Below, one piece after another: positions 3,757 through 23,113 of a DNA stretch of 64,000 nucleotides (position 1 is its first letter; the number at the start of each line of letters is the position of its first letter). Both the position numbers and the translations under genes were made by a program. The notes under the pieces were generated by a model, which worked only from the letters and a program-made list of their open reading frames with translations, did no database searches and was not told where the DNA came from. This DNA comes from an uncultured Dehalococcoidia bacterium (GTDB taxonomy: Bacteria > Chloroflexota > Dehalococcoidia > Lucifugimonadales > UBA2962): contig CAYZES010000001.1 of assembly GCA_964477845.1 (NCBI GenBank), positions 36,426 through 100,425 of the forward strand. Reading direction: 5' to 3'.

Positions 3757-4521
3757 ATGAGCTCCCAGGAGTTTTCGAACAGAGTGGCTCTCGTGACCGG
3801 CGCATCGGCCGGGATCGGGCGGGCGGCCGCGCTTCGCTTCGCCCGCGGAGGGGCTGCCGTCGTCTGCTCGGACATCGCCGATGAGGGTGGACGCGAGACC
3901 GTATCCCAGGTGGCCGCGCTGGGGGCCGAGGCCTGCTTTGTGCACGCCGATGTCTCTTCGGAGTCAGATGTCGCTGCACTGGTCGACGCCGTGACGGACC
4001 GCTTTGGAAGGCTCGACATCGCCTTTAACAACGCCGGGATAGGCCTGTTCGACATAACCGTCGATCAGCATTCGGAGGAACAGTACGACCGGGTCATGGC
4101 GGTCAACTCAACGGGCGTGTTCCTGTGCATGAAGTACGAGGTCCCCGCCATGCTGAATGGAGGTGGCGGCTGCATCGTGAACACGGCCTCCGGTGCGGGC
4201 CTGGTGGGAGGCAAGGGCCTGTCCGTCTACTCGGCGAGCAAACACGCCGTGGTGGGCATGACCAAGTCGGCGGCCCTCGAGTACGCGCGCAGTGGCATCC
4301 GGGTCAACTGCGTTGCGCCGGGGCTCATAGACACCGAGATCAACAGGCCCTTCTGGGACGCCCACCCCGAACTGTACGACGAGTGGAAGAGCGTTCCGCC
4401 GATGGGTCGCTACGGCACCGCGGAAGAGGTCGCCGAGGTCGTCGCCTGGCTGTGCACCGACGATGCCGCATTCGTCCACGGCCACGCGATGTCGGTAGAC
4501 GCCGGGTTGCTCGCGCAGTAG
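3757..4521 (+). CDS. SDR-family oxidoreductase (tandem paralog)
   Basis: The track ORF 3604-4521 overlaps the previous gene. The ATG at 3757 gives MSSQEFSNRVALVTGASAGIGRA, NNAGI, YSASKHAV, and the same C-terminal FVHGHAMSVD as the upstream SDR. Confidence 0.9.
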   Translation: MSSQEFSNRVALVTGASAGIGRAAALRFARGGAAVVCSDIADEGGRETVSQVAALGAEACFVHADVSSESDVAALVDAVTDRFGRLDIAFNNAGIGLFDITVDQHSEEQYDRVMAVNSTGVFLCMKYEVPAMLNGGGGCIVNTASGAGLVGGKGLSVYSASKHAVVGMTKSAALEYARSGIRVNCVAPGLIDTEINRPFWDAHPELYDEWKSVPPMGRYGTAEEVAEVVAWLCTDDAAFVHGHAMSVDAGLLAQ

Positions 4522-4523
4522 CT

Positions 4524-5285
4524 ATGGGCATGCTCGACGGCAAGGTGGCGGTGGTCACCGGCGGCACCTACGGCATCGGGAGGGCGGTCGCCGAGCGCGG
4601 TGCCGCCGAGGGCGCCAGGATCGTGATCGGGGCCCGCGACCCCGGGCGGGGCGCCGAGACCGTCAGGTCGATCGAGGCGGCGGGGGGACAGGCCACCTTC
4701 ATACCCACGGATGTGGCAGACCCGGACCAGGTTGAGGCGTTGATCGATGGCGCGGTTGCCGCCTACGGGCGCCTCGATCTGGCCTGCAACGGCGCGGGCG
4801 TAGAGGGCGAGCGAAGGCTGGTCCACGAGGTGACGGAAGAGGACTGGGAGGCGGTGATGGCCCTCAACCTGCGCGGGGCGTTCGTCTGCATCAAGCTCGA
4901 GATCCAGCAGATGCTCAGGCAGGGTGCCGGAAGCATCGTCAACCTCTCCAGCGCCAACGGCCTTATCGGGACCCCCAGGTTCGCTGCCTACACGGCGAGC
5001 AAGCACGGCCTGATCGGCCTGACCAGAGCGGCGGCCCTGGAGTATTCCGATAAGGGCATCAGGGTGAACGCCGTCTGCCCGGGCGGCGTCGACACGCCGA
5101 TGTTCGAGCGGCTCTACGGTCCTGCCGGCGCAGATGCCCGGGCCAAGGCTGCCGGCGCCCACCCGGCAGGTCGAATAGGCCGGCCGGAGGAGGTGGCGGG
5201 GGCGGTCGTGTTCCTCTGGTCGGACAGGGCCTCATACGTGACGGGGTCCTGCCTTACCCTGGACGGAGGGCTTACGGCAAGCTGA
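4524..5285 (+). CDS. SDR-family oxidoreductase (third in tandem)
   Basis: The ATG at 4524 lies 2 nt after the previous stop and gives MGMLDGKVAVVTGGTYGIGRA, YTASKHGL, PGGVDTP. The longer track ORF (4125-) is an out-of-gene extension. Confidence 0.9.
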   Translation: MGMLDGKVAVVTGGTYGIGRAVAERGAAEGARIVIGARDPGRGAETVRSIEAAGGQATFIPTDVADPDQVEALIDGAVAAYGRLDLACNGAGVEGERRLVHEVTEEDWEAVMALNLRGAFVCIKLEIQQMLRQGAGSIVNLSSANGLIGTPRFAAYTASKHGLIGLTRAAALEYSDKGIRVNAVCPGGVDTPMFERLYGPAGADARAKAAGAHPAGRIGRPEEVAGAVVFLWSDRASYVTGSCLTLDGGLTAS

Positions 5286-5304
5286 CCCGGCAGGGTTCTG
5301 CCCC

Positions 5305-6219
5305 TCAGTGCCTGTTGCGGCGATCGTGGAATAGGTAGTGGTTGGCCCAGCCCGCGTAGCTGCCGAATCGCTCCTGGGCCCACTGCCTTAGTCGGTCACG
5401 CGCGATGATCGCGCCGTCCCTCCGTCTGCCCGGCCTGGGGCGCCCGGGGCCGGCCCGGCGCATGAGCCGTCGCCGAAATGCGCGGATCTCCTGCGGGTAG
5501 ATCTCCTCCAGGGCCCTGTGGATCCAGACGTCGACCGGGAACGCACCGGGCTTGTCCATCGAGAACAGGAGTACGCAGTTGGCCACCTTGTCTCCCACGC
5601 CCGGTACGTCGAGCAGCCGGTCGAGAGCCTCCTCGTAGTCGGTCTCCCTCAGCGCCCATGGGCTGACGCGTCCCTCGGCGACGGCGACGGCGGCCTCGTG
5701 CAGGTATTCGGAGCGGTACCCCAGCTTGAGCCTCCTGAGCCGGACCGGTCCGGCCGAGGCCAGCTGCTCCGGAGAAGGGAACGCGTGCCGGGCGGATCCG
5801 CGGACCTCGATGGGGTCGCCGCAGAGTGTAGCTATGGCCTCAATGTTGGACTGTATGCGCGGCAGGTTGGAATTCGACGAGCATATGAAAGATGCCAGGC
5901 ATTCCCAGGGATCCTGCCGCAGCACCCTCATCCCCCGGTAGCGGCCTATGGACGCGCCGACCACCTCGTCGGTGCCTATCGACCGGTAGATCTCCTCGAG
6001 ATCGATGTCCAGGGCCAGGTAGTCGGCCAGCAGCGGCCACACCTGCCGCTCGGGCTCCGGCCCGCTATGGAATTCGAGCCCGCCGTCGGCCATCCTGAGC
6101 GAAACGATGGAGGAGCCGAGCACGCCTTCGAACCACTCGCCCTGCCTGCGCCAGCGAAACGCCTGCCCGCTCGCGAGCGTGGCGGCCAGGTCCAGCGGAC
6201 CCTCAAGGTGAATGATCAC
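5305..6219 (-). CDS. HhH-GPD DNA glycosylase, 8-oxoguanine glycosylase/AlkA-like
   Basis: N-terminal ASGQAFRW (OGG_N-like) and a helix-hairpin-helix LLDVPGVGDKVANCVLLFS ... FPVDVWIHRAL. Confidence 0.8.
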   Translation of the reverse strand: MIIHLEGPLDLAATLASGQAFRWRRQGEWFEGVLGSSIVSLRMADGGLEFHSGPEPERQVWPLLADYLALDIDLEEIYRSIGTDEVVGASIGRYRGMRVLRQDPWECLASFICSSNSNLPRIQSNIEAIATLCGDPIEVRGSARHAFPSPEQLASAGPVRLRRLKLGYRSEYLHEAAVAVAEGRVSPWALRETDYEEALDRLLDVPGVGDKVANCVLLFSMDKPGAFPVDVWIHRALEEIYPQEIRAFRRRLMRRAGPGRPRPGRRRDGAIIARDRLRQWAQERFGSYAGWANHYLFHDRRNRH

Positions 6220-18984: not shown

Positions 18985-19321
18985 GCTAGGCCGCACCGAA
19001 TGCGGGGCCTAACGGGCCCTGGTAGGAGTAGGAGGGGACGGCGGAAGCTGCGGACGCGCGGGCAGTACGGCGTTCGGACATGACCCGGTCGTCACCGCTG
19101 AGACCCGTCTCGTTAGGTCTCGCACCATCCCGGTGCCGGAGGCAACTGCGGTCAGCATTTCCGCCCAGTAGGTAAGCCGGCAGTTGAGCCGGCACGTTTG
19201 CGCCGGGGTGGTGCGTTTGGTCAGTGGCAGAATTCATCGCGGCAAAGGCGCGGTGTCGAGTTTGACGCGCAAAACAGATCACCGATAGGATGTGGGCTCC
19301 GCATTCACCGCTGAGGGTGCC

Positions 19322-19327
19322 TATAAT
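19322..19327 (+). promoter_or_regulatory. Perfect TATAAT -10 box 7 nt upstream of the zur ATG (leaderless-type start)
   Basis: cCTATAATCCAGGTCATG with no SD. The same geometry occurs at 26345 (TATAATCCAGCAGACATG) and 48688 (TACACTTGCGCCTATG). Confidence 0.5.
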
Positions 19328-19334
19328 CCAGGTC

Positions 19335-19772
19335 ATGACAACGCCGCCCACCGCCTCTCGCCCGGATATGATGGCCGTCCTCGAGGATCGCGGTTATCGA
19401 TCCACAGCCCCTAGGAGAGCGATCATCCGAATCCTGGAGGGCAAGCAGGAAGGCTTTACCGCGGACGAGATCGGCAGTGAACTGCCCGGGGTAGGCAGGG
19501 CGACGATCTTCCGGACCATAAAGCTCCTCATGGAGGTAGGCGTCATATGCAGGCTGAACCTCCTCGACGGCGCTCCCAAGTACAGCCTGTCGCGCATTGA
19601 GCACCATCACCACACGGTATGCGTCAGGTGCGGCATAGTCGGGGAATTTCGGGCCACTACCTTTGAGCGCTTGCTTCGGAGCTTGGGCACCGATATTCCC
19701 GGCGAGATAATGGGTCACCGGATCGAGCTCTACGTCATCTGTGACCGCTGCGTCGAGGGCGAGACCAGCTAG
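19335..19772 (+). CDS. zur: Fur-family metalloregulator, probably Zur
   Basis: Winged-helix RSTAPRRAIIRILEG...FTADEI, then HHHHTVCVRCG ... CDRC. It sits immediately upstream of a znuACB-like operon. The Zur-versus-Fur assignment is by context only. Confidence 0.75.
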   Translation: MTTPPTASRPDMMAVLEDRGYRSTAPRRAIIRILEGKQEGFTADEIGSELPGVGRATIFRTIKLLMEVGVICRLNLLDGAPKYSLSRIEHHHHTVCVRCGIVGEFRATTFERLLRSLGTDIPGEIMGHRIELYVICDRCVEGETS

Positions 19773-19957
19773 GGACAATCCAGGGCAAAAGTGACGATTT
19801 ACCCTGGCCTGCGTTGAGACCTATTATCATCGACTAGACAACCGCATTTTGTCGATTTCGCGTCGCTCAAGATTGAGACAAATTATCAAAGGACTGGATG
19901 CGCAATTGACCTCTTCTGAGGCAAGCCCATAGATCGCTAACAGGGAGACTCTGACTG

Positions 19958-21427
19958 ATGATGACGTCCAAAAACAGATACTTGATTTCCCGTGCGGCCA
20001 AGAGCGTCCTTTTGGCGCTTGCGCTCGTCCTTATGGCGGCTCTTGCGGCTTGTTCGGACGACAGCGGCACGGCGGTGGCGACGCCGAAGACGGTGGCGAC
20101 GCCGAAGGTCGAGCCTACTGTTGCCACGTCGGAAGAACCCGAACCAGAGGGTCGCGACCTTCTCGTCGTAACGACCACCAACATCGTGGCCGATTGGGTG
20201 GAGAACATAGCCGGGGACAATGTAGAGGTGTTCAGCCTGCTGCCGGTGGGTGCCGATCCCCACGGATATCAGCCCGGTGCCAGGGACGTTGCGAGGGTTG
20301 CCGACGCCGACCTGGTGCTCAGCGTAGGGCTCGGCCTGGAGGAGTCTTGGCTAAGGGAACTCCTGCAGAACGCCGCGCGCGACCCTTCGACCATAGTAGA
20401 ACTGGGCGAACTAATAGACCCGATCGAGTTCGGCGAAACTCACATAGAGGATGTCGAACTACTGGAGGGGGTCGCCCACGCCATCGAGGAGGTGGAGGCG
20501 GGTGAGATCAGCCCCGAGGAGGCATTGGAGGAGATCCGGGAGCTGCTCGAGGCCCTAGAGGAGGGCGAGCACCACGGGGATGAAGGGGCGGAGGATGAAG
20601 GCCACATGGATGAAGAGGCGGGGGATGAAGGCCACATGGATGAAGAGGCGGGGGATGAAGACCATATGGATGAAGATGAGGGTGAGGACCACGCCGAAGC
20701 AGATGAGGACGAGGGTGACGATCACGGGGATGAAGAGGGGGAGGAGGAACACGAGGAGGAGCACGGGGATGAGCTTGTCGAGATGGTGGAGGCAGTACTC
20801 GAAGAGTTCGATGAGGGTCATATCGGGGCCGACGAGGCCGTAGAGGTCCTGGAGGCCCTTTCGCACGAGGGCGAGGAAGAGCACGAGGGCCACGGCCACG
20901 GCATCCATGATCCTCACTTCTGGTTCGATCCGATTCGCGTAAAGCTCGCGGTCGACGACATAGCCGAACGCCTGTCCGCCCTGGATCCTGACCGCCGCGA
21001 CACCTACGTCGCCAATGCCTCTGCATATGGCGCAGAGCTTGACGAACTGCACACCTGGACACAGCAGCAGTTGGCAGGAGTGCCGCAGGCCAACAGGCTG
21101 CTGGTGACCTCGCATGACAGCCTTGGTTACTTCGCGAACCTCTACGATTTCGAGGTGATCGGGGTGATCCTGTCGATCACGACTGAGGCTGAGCCGTCTC
21201 CCGAAGATCTCGCCCATCTGGTCGAGGAGGTCAGGGAGTATCAGGTCCCGGCGGTGTTCGGCGAGACGACGGTGAGTGATCGCCTGGCCCAGGCGGTCGC
21301 CGCGGAATCCGGCGCGGAGTTCGTCAGGCTGTACTCCGGCTCTCTTGGAGGCGATGGCAGCGGTGCGGCCACCTATATCGGGATGGTGCGCGCCAACGTC
21401 GAGCGCATAGCCGAGGCCCTGAACTGA
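19958..21427 (+). CDS. znuA: Metal (zinc) ABC transporter substrate-binding lipoprotein with very long acidic/His-rich insertion
   Basis: Lipobox LMAALAAC. TroA/ZnuA core: VVTTTNIVADWVENIAGD, GADPHGYQP, HDPHFWFDP, LVTSHDSLGYF. The insertion is at about residues 158-317. Confidence 0.85.
   Translation: MMTSKNRYLISRAAKSVLLALALVLMAALAACSDDSGTAVATPKTVATPKVEPTVATSEEPEPEGRDLLVVTTTNIVADWVENIAGDNVEVFSLLPVGADPHGYQPGARDVARVADADLVLSVGLGLEESWLRELLQNAARDPSTIVELGELIDPIEFGETHIEDVELLEGVAHAIEEVEAGEISPEEALEEIRELLEALEEGEHHGDEGAEDEGHMDEEAGDEGHMDEEAGDEDHMDEDEGEDHAEADEDEGDDHGDEEGEEEHEEEHGDELVEMVEAVLEEFDEGHIGADEAVEVLEALSHEGEEEHEGHGHGIHDPHFWFDPIRVKLAVDDIAERLSALDPDRRDTYVANASAYGAELDELHTWTQQQLAGVPQANRLLVTSHDSLGYFANLYDFEVIGVILSITTEAEPSPEDLAHLVEEVREYQVPAVFGETTVSDRLAQAVAAESGAEFVRLYSGSLGGDGSGAATYIGMVRANVERIAEALN
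20594..20680 (+). repeat. Tandem 30-bp coding repeat (GATGAAGGCCACATGGATGAAGAGGCGGGG x2 plus a diverged third copy)
   Basis: 20594-20623 and 20624-20653 are identical; 20654-20680 is diverged. They encode DEGHMDEEAG units inside the ZnuA loop. Confidence 0.85.
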
Positions 21428-21530: not shown

Positions 21531-22289
21531 ATGGACGCCACGCTGGGCATATCTGTCAAAGACGTAACCGTCGAGCGCCGCGGCTTCGAGGCCCTGACCG
21601 GCATAACCTTCGAGGTAGGGCGGGGAACCCTGATGGGCGTCTTGGGCCCCAATGGGGCCGGCAAGAGCACCCTCTTCGACGCGATTGCGGGAATTCTGCC
21701 CATCGCGAGCGGGACCGTGGAACTGCGTGGCGCGGATGCCCGCAACGGATCGCTGGCCTACGTCCCCCAGCGAGACAGCATCAACTGGCGTTTTCCGGCC
21801 ACCATCCTGGACGTAGTGATGATGGGGCGATCCAGCAATGTCGGATGGTTTCGTCAGCCTAGCAAGGGTGACCGGGAGATGGTGCGTGTATGTCTGGATC
21901 GAGTTGGGCTGTGGGAGCGGCGCTCGTCCCTGATGACGGAGCTGTCCGGCGGGCAGCGCCAGCGGGTGTTTATCGCAAGAGCGCTGGCCCAGGAAGCGAG
22001 CATAATCTTGCTGGACGAGGCCTTCAGCGGGGTGGACGTCGGTGCCCAAGAGGGCATCATCGAGGTTCTCCAGTCACTTCGCAACGATGGCATGATAGTT
22101 CTGCTGGCCACACATGACCTTACCAACCTGGCCGAGCGCTTCGACCAGGTGCTGTGCATCAACCGTCACGTCTGCGCATGCGGCGCACCCGAAGAGGCGT
22201 TCACGCCGAAGGTACTTGAGGAGCTCTACGGCTCGCACGGCCTGGACTTTGTGCTAAACGGGCCGGGCAGCACCACAGGCGAAGCGTAA
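21531..22289 (+). CDS. znuC: Metal ABC transporter ATP-binding protein
   Basis: Walker A GPNGAGKST, signature LSGGQRQRV, Walker B ILLDEAFSGVD. Confidence 0.85.
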   Translation: MDATLGISVKDVTVERRGFEALTGITFEVGRGTLMGVLGPNGAGKSTLFDAIAGILPIASGTVELRGADARNGSLAYVPQRDSINWRFPATILDVVMMGRSSNVGWFRQPSKGDREMVRVCLDRVGLWERRSSLMTELSGGQRQRVFIARALAQEASIILLDEAFSGVDVGAQEGIIEVLQSLRNDGMIVLLATHDLTNLAERFDQVLCINRHVCACGAPEEAFTPKVLEELYGSHGLDFVLNGPGSTTGEA

Positions 22290-23113
22290 TGGCGTTTCTG
22301 ACCGAGCCCTTCCAGTACGGGTTCATGGTGCGGGCGCTGATAGTCTCCGTGCTCGTCGGCATCATGTGCCCGGTACTCGGTGCATACGTAATCACGAGGG
22401 GACGTGCCTTCATGGGAGACGCGCTCGCCCACTCGGTGCTGCCCGGCATGGTTGTCGCCTTCATGCTGGGAATCAGCCCGTTCTTTGCGGCCGTGCCCGC
22501 TGGAATAGGGATTGCCCTGTTGATGGGTTCGGTCAGCCGACGCACTGGAGTTAGCGAGGACACCTCGATCGGCATTATCTTCGCGGGCATGTTCGCACTG
22601 GGCCTGGTGATGCTGTCGGTGGCCACCCACGTCAATGTAAACATCGAGGATCTGCTGCTGGGACAGGTTCTAGGAGTCTCGCGTAACGACGTATTCATCT
22701 CGCTCGGGCTGACCGCACTGGTAGTTGTCGGGCTGTATGCATTTCATCGTCATCTCGTGTACACGACCTTCGATCCGGTGGGTGCTACGGTTATCGGCAT
22801 TCGGACGGGCGTAATCGAGTACGTGCTGCTCGCCCTGCTGGCGCTTGTAATCATCATCGGCATACAGGCCGCCGGCATCGTCCTGGTCATGGCGATGCTC
22901 ATCACTCCGGCGGCCACCGGCTACCTCCTGGCCAAAAGGTTCGTCGGGGTCATGGTCATCGGCGCGCTGGTCGGCGCCATTTCGGCGGTGGTCGGCCTGT
23001 ATGTCTCCTTCCATGTAGACCTCCCATCGGGTCCTGCTATGGCGCTGGTGGCCACACTGGCCTTCGCGGTGGTAGCCACTGTGAAGACCAGGTGGAACGT
23101 GCGCGCACTCTAA
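22289..23113 (+). CDS. znuB: Metal ABC transporter permease (ABC-3 family)
   Basis: The start overlaps the znuC stop. 274 aa, polytopic, MGDALAHSVLPG motif typical of ZnuB/MntB-type permeases. Confidence 0.85.
   Translation: MAFLTEPFQYGFMVRALIVSVLVGIMCPVLGAYVITRGRAFMGDALAHSVLPGMVVAFMLGISPFFAAVPAGIGIALLMGSVSRRTGVSEDTSIGIIFAGMFALGLVMLSVATHVNVNIEDLLLGQVLGVSRNDVFISLGLTALVVVGLYAFHRHLVYTTFDPVGATVIGIRTGVIEYVLLALLALVIIIGIQAAGIVLVMAMLITPAATGYLLAKRFVGVMVIGALVGAISAVVGLYVSFHVDLPSGPAMALVATLAFAVVATVKTRWNVRAL

What the first reader, a model, noticed from the sequence alone, without database searches (positions are those of the whole stretch)
20429..20908. ZnuA-like binding protein carries a roughly 160-residue acidic/His insertion with live tandem repeats
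ZnuA proteins typically have a short His-rich loop before the conserved HDPH(F/I)W motif. Here the loop runs from about residue 158 to 317: GETHIEDVELLEG...EGEHHGDEGAEDEGHMDEEAGDEGHMDEEAGDEDHMDEDEGEDHAEADEDEGDDHGDEEGEEEHEEEHGDE...HEGEEEHEGHGHGIHDPHFW. It contains two perfectly identical 30-bp units (20594-20653), which implies recent slippage or expansion. It also has two helix-like modules (EEALEEIRELLEALEE and ADEAVEVLEALSHE), each followed by a His cluster. The loop is about a third of the protein and may act as a built-in metal antenna or reservoir.
Basis: partly seen in the sequence, partly recalled or inferred. Interest (0 to 1): 0.55.

Follow-up and report, generated by a model that had tools for sequence, protein, structure and literature searches.

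The report
Zinc-binding protein with giant structured His-rich insertion
A metal-uptake binding protein of a marine Dehalococcoidia/SAR202-type bacterium carries a 160-residue insertion where zinc-binding relatives have a short histidine-rich loop; it is real and shared by its whole clade, and is partly folded: two duplicated helical hairpins around a fast-evolving acidic, histidine-rich repeat.

Summary
Residues 158-317 (window 20429-20908) of a 489-aa lipoprotein, a cluster A-I metal-binding protein (Pfam ZnuA, closest named family AztC), have no counterpart in any solved homologue. They hold 73 Asp/Glu, 17 His and 1 Arg. A 30-bp unit repeats perfectly over 68 bp, against at most 21 in 1000 codon shuffles.

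The insertion is not unique. All 120 closest protein clusters and 15 Dehalococcoidia/SAR202 species genomes carry an insertion of 94-187 aa.

It is also more than a loop. AlphaFold2 predicts four confident helices. They form two homologous hairpins (profile-profile probability 92%) with invariant His and Glu. The hairpins bracket a disordered D/E/H/G segment that varies from 0 to 80 aa. An invariant HxxHGHG then leads into the metal ligand His320. A 92%-identical relative differs by exactly one 30-bp unit.

In other relatives the same site holds whole zinc- or copper-chaperone domains (AztD, ZinT, PCuAC).

Best reading: a built-in zinc capture and hand-off module, an enlarged and partly structured version of the known His-rich loop. 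Metal binding is untested. I rate it a new variant of a known kind, of moderate interest.

The parts
19290..19772 (+). Fur-family regulator gene, a probable Zur by context. The start codon is uncertain: the ORF is 160 aa here, but 133 aa are called in the syntenic contig L069.
   Evidence: Pfam FUR PF01475, E 1.2e-20. All NCBIfam matches fall below their cut-offs.
19814..19888 (+). Promoter region with two direct copies of TTGAGACnnATTATCA (19814-19829 and 19873-19888). They could be Fur/Zur-box half-sites or promoter elements.
   Evidence: Both copies are invariant in four orthologous intergenic regions whose proteins are 82-92% identical. Function was not tested.
19958..21427 (+). Gene for the lipoprotein metal (probably Zn) substrate-binding protein, 489 aa, cluster A-I, AztC-like.
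   Evidence: Pfam ZnuA scores 268 bits against a cut-off of 29. NCBIfam AztC scores 256.7 bits, the best hit but below its 350 cut-off. Foldseek TM-scores normalised to the target are 0.85-0.90 against YfeA, PsaA, AztC and ZnuA.
19958..20053 (+). Signal peptide with lipobox LAAC. Cys32 is the lipidation site.
   Evidence: The sequence is ...MAALAAC32SDD. C32 is invariant in 120 relatives.
20073..20107 (+). Perfect 18-bp tandem repeat (1.9 copies) in the Thr/Pro/Ala/Val-rich tether between the lipid anchor and the N-lobe.
   Evidence: TRF, 100% matches. The encoded sequence is VATPKT/VATPKV.
20150..20428 (+). N-lobe of the binding protein (residues 65-157), with metal ligand His102 at 20261-20263.
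   Evidence: It aligns to YfeA and PsaA N-lobes. The GADPH motif aligns to the PsaA QDPH motif. H102 is invariant, 120/120.
20429..20908 (+). The whole insertion, residues 158-317.
   Evidence: It has no counterpart in any solved homologue.
20444..20572 (+). Helical hairpin 1 (helices 163-180 and 186-205), holding conserved H162, H174, H/E177, E178, E180, G182 and E183.
   Evidence: AF2 pLDDT is about 91-97 in the full-length model and 84-94 in the isolated model.
20573..20761 (+). Hypervariable, predicted-disordered D/E/H/G repeat region (residues 206-268).
   Evidence: pLDDT is below 50 for residues 204-269. Its length is 0-80 aa among 120 relatives. Pooled composition is E 44%, D 19%, G 17%, H 15.5%.
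20578..20676 (+). 30-bp tandem array of 3.3 copies, encoding (E/D)(E/G)(A/G)GDE(G/D)HMD-type units. 20593-20660 is perfectly periodic.
   Evidence: There is a one-unit indel relative to L069.
20762..20884 (+). Helical hairpin 2 (helices 269-285 and 291-309), homologous to hairpin 1. E296 is invariant and H309 is present in 119/120.
   Evidence: AF2. hhalign of module 1 against module 2 gives probability 92%, E 6.4e-7.
20882..20908 (+). Canonical short His-rich stretch H309-E-G-H312-G-H314-G-I-H317, directly before the ligand motif.
   Evidence: H312, G313, H314 and G315 are invariant in 120 sequences. pLDDT is below 50 for 308-317.
20909..21424 (+). C-lobe (residues 318-489), with ligands His320 (20915-20917), His386 (21113-21115) and Asp441 (21278-21280).
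   Evidence: Motif alignment to PsaA and YfeA. H320 and H386 are 120/120. Position 441 is E in 109 and D in 11.
21531..22289 (+). ABC transporter ATPase gene.
   Evidence: Pfam ABC_tran, E 5.9e-26.
22289..23113 (+). ABC-3 family permease gene.
   Evidence: Pfam ABC-3, E 1.1e-71.

Best explanation
The gene encodes the membrane-tethered substrate-binding protein of a Fur-family-linked metal ABC importer. It has a 3His/1Asp site (H102, H320, H386, D441), so the metal is most likely zinc.

The insertion sits where the characterised zinc protein AztC has its 17-residue D-loop and ZnuA has its His-rich loop. It is conserved across this Dehalococcoidia/SAR202 clade and is modular:
1. Helical hairpin 1.
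2. A disordered, slippage-prone D/E/H/G repeat.
3. Helical hairpin 2, a duplicate of hairpin 1.
4. An invariant HxxHGHG stretch leading into ligand His320.

Proposed mechanism (inferred, not shown):
- The polyanionic, His-studded disordered segment collects Zn2+ from very dilute surroundings at many weak His/carboxylate sites.
- The two hairpins pack into a four-helix scaffold. This holds both ends of that segment at the mouth of the binding cleft and offers conserved His/Glu ligands.
- The HxxHGHG stretch passes the ion to the high-affinity site.
- The loaded protein then docks on the ABC-3 permease.

Replication slippage in the repeat changes its length, and so its capacity, between close lineages. 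In effect this is a built-in, cis-acting metallochaperone.
For: Shown here:
- Family, fold and operon.
- Ligand positions: H102, H320 and H386 are each 120/120, and position 441 is always D or E.
- The insertion lies exactly between the N-lobe and the second His ligand.
- Four helices are predicted at pLDDT 84-97, both in the full protein and in the insertion alone. Residues 204-269 are disordered.
- The helices show a 3-4 hydrophobic periodicity.
- The two hairpins are homologous.
- His and Glu in the hairpins are invariant: H162, E178, E180, E296, H312 and H314 are 120/120, and H174 is 118/120.
- The middle segment varies from 0 to 80 aa.
- A 92%-identical relative has a clean 30-bp indel.
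- At the same site, relatives carry AztD (112-247 bits), ZinT (54 bits) or PCuAC (107 bits) domains, nested between His-rich linkers.

From the literature:
- A flexible His/acidic loop generally marks Zn specificity and provides secondary Zn sites (PMC9175090).
- The AztC D-loop is required for zinc transfer from AztD (PMC6689063 and PMC7463823).
Against: - No metal-binding data exist for this protein or any relative with hairpins.
- A 3His/1Asp site also occurs in TroA, which binds both Zn and Mn, so zinc is not proven.
- Loop deletions in P. denitrificans ZnuA and AztC cause little or no growth defect (PMC7731109), so such loops can be dispensable.
- I could not inspect model coordinates. 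That the four helices pack into one bundle near the metal site is therefore an inference.
- The isolated insertion has pTM of only 0.50.
- The variable repeat could be largely neutral.
Confidence: 0.6

Rival explanations
1. The insertion is a zinc sensor or auto-inhibitory plug. At high zinc, the filled His/acidic segment and the helical module close over the cleft or block docking to the permease, which throttles import.
For: [quoted passage not shown] The conserved, structured hairpins next to the site could act as a lid.
Against: The domains found at the same site in relatives (AztD, ZinT, PCuAC) are metal donors, not inhibitors. An adjacent Fur-family regulator is a candidate for control at the transcriptional level.
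Confidence: 0.12
2. The hairpins are a protein-protein interaction or oligomerisation platform. They would dock a separate chaperone or cell-envelope partner, or pair binding proteins with each other. Metal capture would be secondary.
For: There is sub-threshold similarity to SHOCT-like helical hairpins: 12 of 21 hairpin pairs match PF22746 at E<=0.01. In characterised systems the loop is the docking element for ZinT and AztD.
Against: No AztD, ZinT or PCuAC homologue lies in the 64-kb window. All SHOCT matches are below the Pfam cut-off. The residues that are invariant in the hairpins are His and Glu, as expected for metal ligands.
Confidence: 0.12
3. Only the hairpins and the HxxHGHG stretch are functional. 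The D/E/H/G repeat is a near-neutral low-complexity expansion driven by slippage, and its length has no adaptive value.
For: Its length ranges from 0 to 80 aa among otherwise conserved relatives. It is made of tandem repeats with perfect copies and indels.
Against: The composition is tightly restricted to E, D, G and H (96% of residues), with His recurring regularly. In the wider subfamily, 19 of 121 representatives have H/D/E/G-rich low-complexity expansions of 40 aa or more at this site, up to 277 aa.
Confidence: 0.12
4. The repeat region is an assembly artefact, collapsed or chimeric.
For: Repeats are error-prone in short-read assemblies. Several ENA fragments of this region look frameshifted.
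Against: The reading frame is intact. Independent assemblies, including chromosome-level MAGs L001 and L002, have the same architecture and similar lengths. The only difference from L069 in the array is one in-frame unit.
Confidence: 0.03

Closest known systems
AztC, the zinc substrate-binding protein of AztABCD (Paracoccus denitrificans; PDB 5W56, 5W57, 5KZJ, 6XPN)
   Same: It is the best NCBIfam match. It has the same fold (TM-score normalised to the target 0.84-0.89). It has the same 3His/1Asp ligand pattern. It carries a His-bearing flexible loop directly before the second His ligand, and that loop mediates zinc hand-off.
   Different: The AztC D-loop is 17 residues (117-133) and disordered. 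Here the insertion is 160 residues, with four predicted helices. The score is 256.7 bits against the 350 equivalog cut-off. There is no aztD in the operon or the window.
ZnuA His-rich loop (E. coli, Salmonella, Synechocystis, P. denitrificans)
   Same: It is an acidic, His-rich segment next to the primary site. It gives extra low-affinity Zn sites and contacts ZinT.
   Different: The P. denitrificans ZnuA loop is called 'extremely long' at just over 30 residues, and no Group II loop has been seen ordered in a crystal structure (PMC7731109). ZnuA proper is a distant relative (NCBIfam 67 bits against a 268 cut-off; PDB E about 1e-11). It uses 3His plus Glu or water.
AdcA (ZnuA-like domain fused to a ZinT domain, Streptococcus)
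   Same: A zinc-recruiting accessory module is built into the binding protein in cis.
   Different: AdcA carries a C-terminal lipocalin-like ZinT domain. Here the module is an internal helical scaffold plus a repeat. Some relatives (P0189, P0260, P0278, Treponema L038/L039) do have ZinT, but inserted in the loop.
YfeA, PsaA and MntC (Group III Mn/Fe binding proteins)
   Same: They are the best sequence matches among solved structures (E about 1e-42 to 1e-37) and the best Foldseek matches.
   Different: They have Glu where this protein has His386, and they have no loop at the insertion site.
SHOCT-like domain (Pfam PF22746)
   Same: Each hairpin carries the motif G-x-I-[ST]-x-E-E-[AG]-h-x-x-h-x-x-L-L. 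Twelve of 21 hairpin pairs match at E<=0.01.
   Different: The best score is 23.8 bits against a gathering cut-off of 27. The context is different. Homology is not established.

Membership tests
Cluster A-I metal substrate-binding proteins (Pfam ZnuA PF01297) | Profile match above the curated cut-off | tested here: met
   268.4 bits against a cut-off of 29, covering residues 70-487.
Cluster A-I metal substrate-binding proteins (Pfam ZnuA PF01297) | Fold shared with solved cluster A-I binding proteins | tested here: met
   The AF2 model matches YfeA, PsaA, MntC, TroA, AztC and ZnuA with TM-scores normalised to the target of 0.85-0.90 and probability 1.00.
Cluster A-I metal substrate-binding proteins (Pfam ZnuA PF01297) | Encoded next to an ABC ATPase and an ABC-3 permease | tested here: met
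   ABC_tran at 21531-22289 and ABC-3 at 22289-23113. The order is the same in L069.
Cluster A-I metal substrate-binding proteins (Pfam ZnuA PF01297) | Metal ligands at the four canonical positions | tested here: met
   H102, H320, H386 and D441 align to the PsaA and YfeA ligand motifs. They are conserved in 120/120 relatives, with D or E at 441.
AztC (NCBIfam NF040870, equivalog) | Score at or above the curated cut-off of 350 bits | tested here: not met
   256.7 bits. It is the best family but falls below the cut-off.
AztC (NCBIfam NF040870, equivalog) | 3His/1Asp zinc site | tested here: met
   H102, H320, H386 and D441. AztC uses His138, His204 and Asp279.
AztC (NCBIfam NF040870, equivalog) | Partner metallochaperone gene aztD in the operon | tested here: not met
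   The operon is Fur, binding protein, ATPase, permease. tblastn with AztD inserts finds nothing in the window at E below 0.3.
AztC (NCBIfam NF040870, equivalog) | Zinc-specific, high-affinity binding | not testable with these tools
   This needs metal-binding assays.
ZnuA in the strict sense (Group II, NCBIfam NF007091) | Score at or above the 268-bit cut-off, and a 3His plus Glu/water site | tested here: not met
   67.3 bits. The fourth ligand is at the Group III Asp position.
His-rich flexible loop of zinc-specific binding proteins | Located directly N-terminal to the second His ligand, near the metal site | tested here: met
   The insertion ends at H317, three residues before H320.
His-rich flexible loop of zinc-specific binding proteins | Rich in His, Asp and Glu | tested here: met
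   17 His and 73 Asp/Glu in 160 residues.
His-rich flexible loop of zinc-specific binding proteins | Intrinsically disordered throughout | tested here: not met
   Only residues 204-269 and 308-317 are predicted disordered. Four helices reach pLDDT 84-97. This is a prediction only.
His-rich flexible loop of zinc-specific binding proteins | Provides additional lower-affinity Zn sites or hands metal over | not testable with these tools
   This needs stoichiometry and transfer kinetics.
SHOCT-like domain (PF22746) | Profile match above the gathering score of 27 bits | tested here: not met
   The best score is 23.8 bits. Twelve of 21 hairpin pairs match at E<=0.01, all below the cut-off.
Slippage-prone coding tandem repeat | Head-to-tail identical in-frame units, with copy number differing between close relatives | tested here: met
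   68 bp of perfect period 30, beyond all 1000 codon shuffles. A single 30-bp indel separates it from the 92%-identical L069.

The most novel reading that the evidence does not exclude
The duplicated His/Glu-bearing helical hairpin is a previously undescribed, autonomously folding metal-binding module. It is found in marine Chloroflexota and in Nitrosopumilus archaea, and is amplified to six copies in some proteins. It works as a built-in zinc metallochaperone inside the binding protein's loop. In function it would be interchangeable with the AztD, ZinT and PCuAC domains that other relatives insert at exactly the same site. It would also give the first ordered, structurally tractable version of the long-enigmatic His-rich loop.
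Probability: 0.3. Interest if true: 0.65.

Novelty: new variant of a known kind. Interest (0 to 1): 0.5.

Why it matters
The role of the His-rich loop of zinc-binding proteins is still described as not established (PMC9175090). No Group II loop has been seen ordered in a crystal (PMC7731109). This clade offers a natural version about five times longer, with a conserved, confidently predicted helical scaffold. That could make the loop amenable to structural and stoichiometric study.

The survey also shows that the loop site is an insertion hot spot. Relatives place complete AztD, ZinT or PCuAC chaperone domains there. This independently supports the published model in which the loop is the interface for metal hand-off.

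The carriers are Dehalococcoidia/SAR202-type bacteria and a Nitrosopumilus archaeon, which I take from general knowledge to be marine groups (habitat and abundance were not examined here). The module may therefore bear on how oligotrophic marine microbes scavenge trace zinc.

Tried and rejected
1. Source names for the protein and nine relatives: none are on record. An exact look-up of the window's protein in the contig index found nothing.

2. My first regex measure of the distance between ligand motifs failed for many divergent relatives. I replaced it with phmmer coordinates of the two lobes.

3. A search for the hairpin pair outside binding proteins returned only 16 short proteins. On inspection these are fragments or frameshifted pieces of binding-protein genes, or Nitrosopumilus-type fragments. 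There is no evidence for a stand-alone family. The word-based prefilter may also have missed full-length proteins.

4. Foldseek of the isolated insertion against the PDB gave nothing below E=5. The top hit, a designed zinc-induced helical tetramer, is not significant.

5. Pfam and NCBIfam scans of the insertion alone gave only sub-threshold helical hits.

6. A search for a palindromic Zur box found only one 10-nt inverted repeat (19780-19807), just after the Fur-family gene. What is conserved in the promoter is a pair of direct repeats instead.

7. I rejected assembly artefact as the main explanation.

8. I rejected filing the protein as AztC or as ZnuA proper, because the curated cut-offs are not met.
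Full report
**1. The observation**

The ORF at 19958..21427 (+) encodes 489 aa. Window 20429-20908 corresponds to residues 158-317. This stretch has 54 Glu, 19 Asp, 17 His, 21 Gly, one Arg and no Lys, with a net charge of about -73 at pH 8.

Alignments to every solved homologue break at query residue 156 and resume near 310. In YfeA the two pieces are one residue apart. So the segment is a true insertion at the position of the His-rich loop.

The tandem repeat is real. Base i equals base i+30 for 38 consecutive positions from 20593, which gives 68 bp of perfect period 30. TRF finds 3.3 copies over 20578-20676. In 1000 codon-preserving shuffles the longest self-match was 21, against 38 observed.

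**2. The gene and its setting**

- The protein matches Pfam ZnuA at 268 bits.
- Its best NCBIfam family is AztC at 256.7 bits, below the 350 cut-off. ZnuA proper scores only 67 bits.
- The best solved relatives are the Group III proteins YfeA, PsaA and MntC.
- The AF2 model superposes on YfeA, PsaA, MntC, TroA, AztC and ZnuA with target-normalised TM-scores of 0.85-0.90. All solved targets are 286 residues or fewer, so none contains the insertion.
- Motif alignment puts His102, His320, His386 and Asp441 at the four ligand positions. The three His are invariant in 120 relatives, and position 441 is always Glu or Asp.
- A His rather than Glu at the third position, the 3His/1Asp set (as in AztC and TroA) and a His-rich loop all point to zinc (review PMC9175090). 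This is an inference.
- The N-terminus has a lipobox (LAAC) with invariant Cys32.
- The gene order is Fur-family regulator, binding protein, ABC ATPase, ABC-3 permease. The order is identical in the nearest relative's contig.
- No second binding protein and no AztD, ZinT or PCuAC homologue lies in the window.

**3. Anatomy of the insertion**

With a 120-sequence alignment, AF2 predicts four helices (163-180, 186-205, 269-285, 291-309). Ten-residue block means of pLDDT reach about 87-97 over their cores. Residues 204-269 and 308-317 score below 50.

Predicted on its own, the insertion gives the same four helices at pLDDT 84-94. The helices have a 3-4 hydrophobic periodicity.

Conservation follows the same boundaries. 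Residues about 154-203 and 271-317 are highly conserved, and the middle is not. Invariant or nearly invariant residues in the helical parts are mostly potential ligands:

| Residue | Count in 120 relatives |
|---|---|
| H162, E178, E180, E296, H312, H314 | 120 |
| H309 | 119 |
| H174 | 118 |
| H177 (Glu in this window's protein) | 114 |

G182 is also invariant.

A profile-profile comparison shows the two helix-turn-helix modules are homologous to each other (probability 92%, E 6.4e-7). The scaffold therefore arose by internal duplication.

Each module resembles a SHOCT-like hairpin, but only below the Pfam threshold. Foldseek finds no solved structure like the isolated insertion.

I could not inspect coordinates. 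That the four helices form one bundle near the cleft is an inference.

**4. The repeat is evolving now**

The closest relative (P0002, 92% identical, contig L069) differs in this tract by a single clean 30-bp in-frame indel. More distant relatives have two HMDE-type units where the window has three, so the window lineage probably gained a unit.

Among the 120 nearest clusters the variable segment ranges from 0 to 80 aa (median 29; window 66). The whole insertion ranges from 94 to 187 aa (median 127; window 161, sixth longest). Pooled composition of the variable segment is E 44%, D 19%, G 17% and H 15.5%.

**5. It is a clade feature, not a one-off**

All 120 best hits in the 5.8-billion-protein collection are 408-514 aa and share the architecture. 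That search favours shared words, so I also ran an unbiased survey using the C-lobe alone as query.

Of 121 representatives at 50% clustering that have both lobes, the median insertion is 31 aa. Twenty-eight have 100 aa or more, and 19 have 160 aa or more. By content:

| Insertion class | Representatives |
|---|---|
| Short (under 40 aa) | 76 |
| H/D/E/G-rich low complexity, 40 aa or more (up to 277 aa) | 19 |
| Helical hairpins (two to six copies) | 8 |
| AztD | 4 |
| ZinT | 3 |
| PCuAC | 1-2 |
| Other | 9 |

Fifteen species-level genomes, all Dehalococcoidia, SAR202 or Chloroflexota, have the two-hairpin module.

A Nitrosopumilus binding protein (L017) is only 27% identical in the lobes. Even so, it scores 27 bits against a hairpin-pair profile built only from the bacterial clade. 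Five hundred composition-preserving shuffles of it reached at most -0.7 bits.

**6. What occupies the same site elsewhere**

- P0141, P0178 and P0154 carry one or two AztD-like beta-propellers (112, 139 and 247 bits).
- P0189 carries ZinT (54 bits against a cut-off of 27).
- P0253 carries PCuAC (107 bits).

Each domain is nested between His/Asp/Glu-rich linkers and followed by the HxH...DPHFW motif.

AztD and ZinT are the two known zinc chaperones that hand metal to binding proteins through this very loop (PMC6689063, PMC7463823, PMC7731109). These fusions tie the site to metal hand-off.

**7. Mechanism and rivals**

The best reading is a built-in capture and hand-off module (confidence 0.6):

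- The disordered polyanionic, His-studded repeat gathers Zn2+.
- The duplicated hairpins hold it at the cleft and add conserved His/Glu ligands.
- The invariant HxxHGHG stretch delivers the ion to the 3His/1Asp site.

Rivals are a high-zinc sensor or plug, a docking or oligomerisation platform, a largely neutral repeat, and an assembly artefact. The artefact reading is unlikely given independent chromosome-level assemblies with the same architecture.

Two things count against over-reading the result. Loop deletions in P. denitrificans have mild phenotypes. No metal data exist for this clade.

**8. Comparison and novelty**

The P. denitrificans ZnuA loop is called 'extremely long' at just over 30 residues, and no Group II loop has been seen ordered (PMC7731109). 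The AztC D-loop is 17 residues.

I found no paper describing helical modules, or AztD, ZinT or PCuAC insertions, in this loop. The literature library is incomplete, so this is a weak negative.

The protein is a member of the cluster A-I family and works like AztC or ZnuA. It fails the curated cut-offs of both named families.

I rate it a new variant of a known kind. The clade-wide architecture appears undescribed and is moderately interesting.

Noticed in passing
window 20073-20107: A second perfect tandem repeat (18 bp, 1.9 copies). It encodes VATPKT/VATPKV in the Thr/Pro-rich tether between the lipid-anchored Cys32 and the N-lobe.
   Followed up: no
window 19814-19829 and 19873-19888: Two direct copies of TTGAGACnnATTATCA lie upstream of the binding-protein gene. 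They are invariant in four orthologous promoters. They could be Fur/Zur-box half-sites or promoter elements.
   Followed up: partly
window 19780-19807: A 10-nt inverted repeat (CCAGGGCAAA / TTTACCCTGG) sits just after the stop of the Fur-family gene. It is largely kept in L069. It may be a terminator or an operator.
   Followed up: no
window 19290-19772: The Fur-family ORF is 160 aa from its first ATG, but the syntenic gene in L069 is called at 133 aa. The true start is probably further downstream.
   Followed up: no
proteins P0141, P0178, P0154, P0213 and P0136 (relatives, not in the window): AztC-like binding proteins with one or two complete AztD-like beta-propeller chaperone domains inserted in the loop site (NCBIfam AztD 112-247 bits). 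These are natural fusions of donor and acceptor. I did not find them described in the papers searched.
   Followed up: partly
proteins P0189, P0260 and P0278; loci L038 and L039 (Treponema/Spirochaetaceae), match 4001-5530 and 4001-5374: A ZinT (YodA) lipocalin-like domain is inserted inside the loop, not fused at the C-terminus as in AdcA. Pfam ZinT scores 54 bits for P0189.
   Followed up: partly
protein P0253: A copper-chaperone PCuAC domain (107 bits) is inserted at the same loop site of a ZnuA-family binding protein. This raises the question of which metal that relative carries.
   Followed up: no
locus L017 (Nitrosopumilus sp. MAG), match 4001-5134: An archaeal binding protein only 27% identical in the lobes carries a homologous double-hairpin insertion (27 bits; shuffles at most -0.7). 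This suggests either module transfer or strong convergence. The title of another record from the same scan, L024, also names a Nitrosopumilus MAG; its protein has only an EEEH repeat at the site.
   Followed up: partly
proteins P0140, P0142 and P0139: The hairpin pair is itself tandemly amplified. Four to six hairpins are separated by His-rich linkers, giving insertions of 270-316 aa in P0140 and P0142.
   Followed up: partly
protein P0164: A 277-aa insertion made of about 30 near-identical DADGDGHDT units. It is the most extreme pure repeat found at this site.
   Followed up: no
proteins P0282-P0294 (ENA fragments): Many short ORFs covering the hairpin region end in frameshift-like tails. This suggests the repeat region is often mis-assembled or mis-called in metagenome assemblies.
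   Followed up: no
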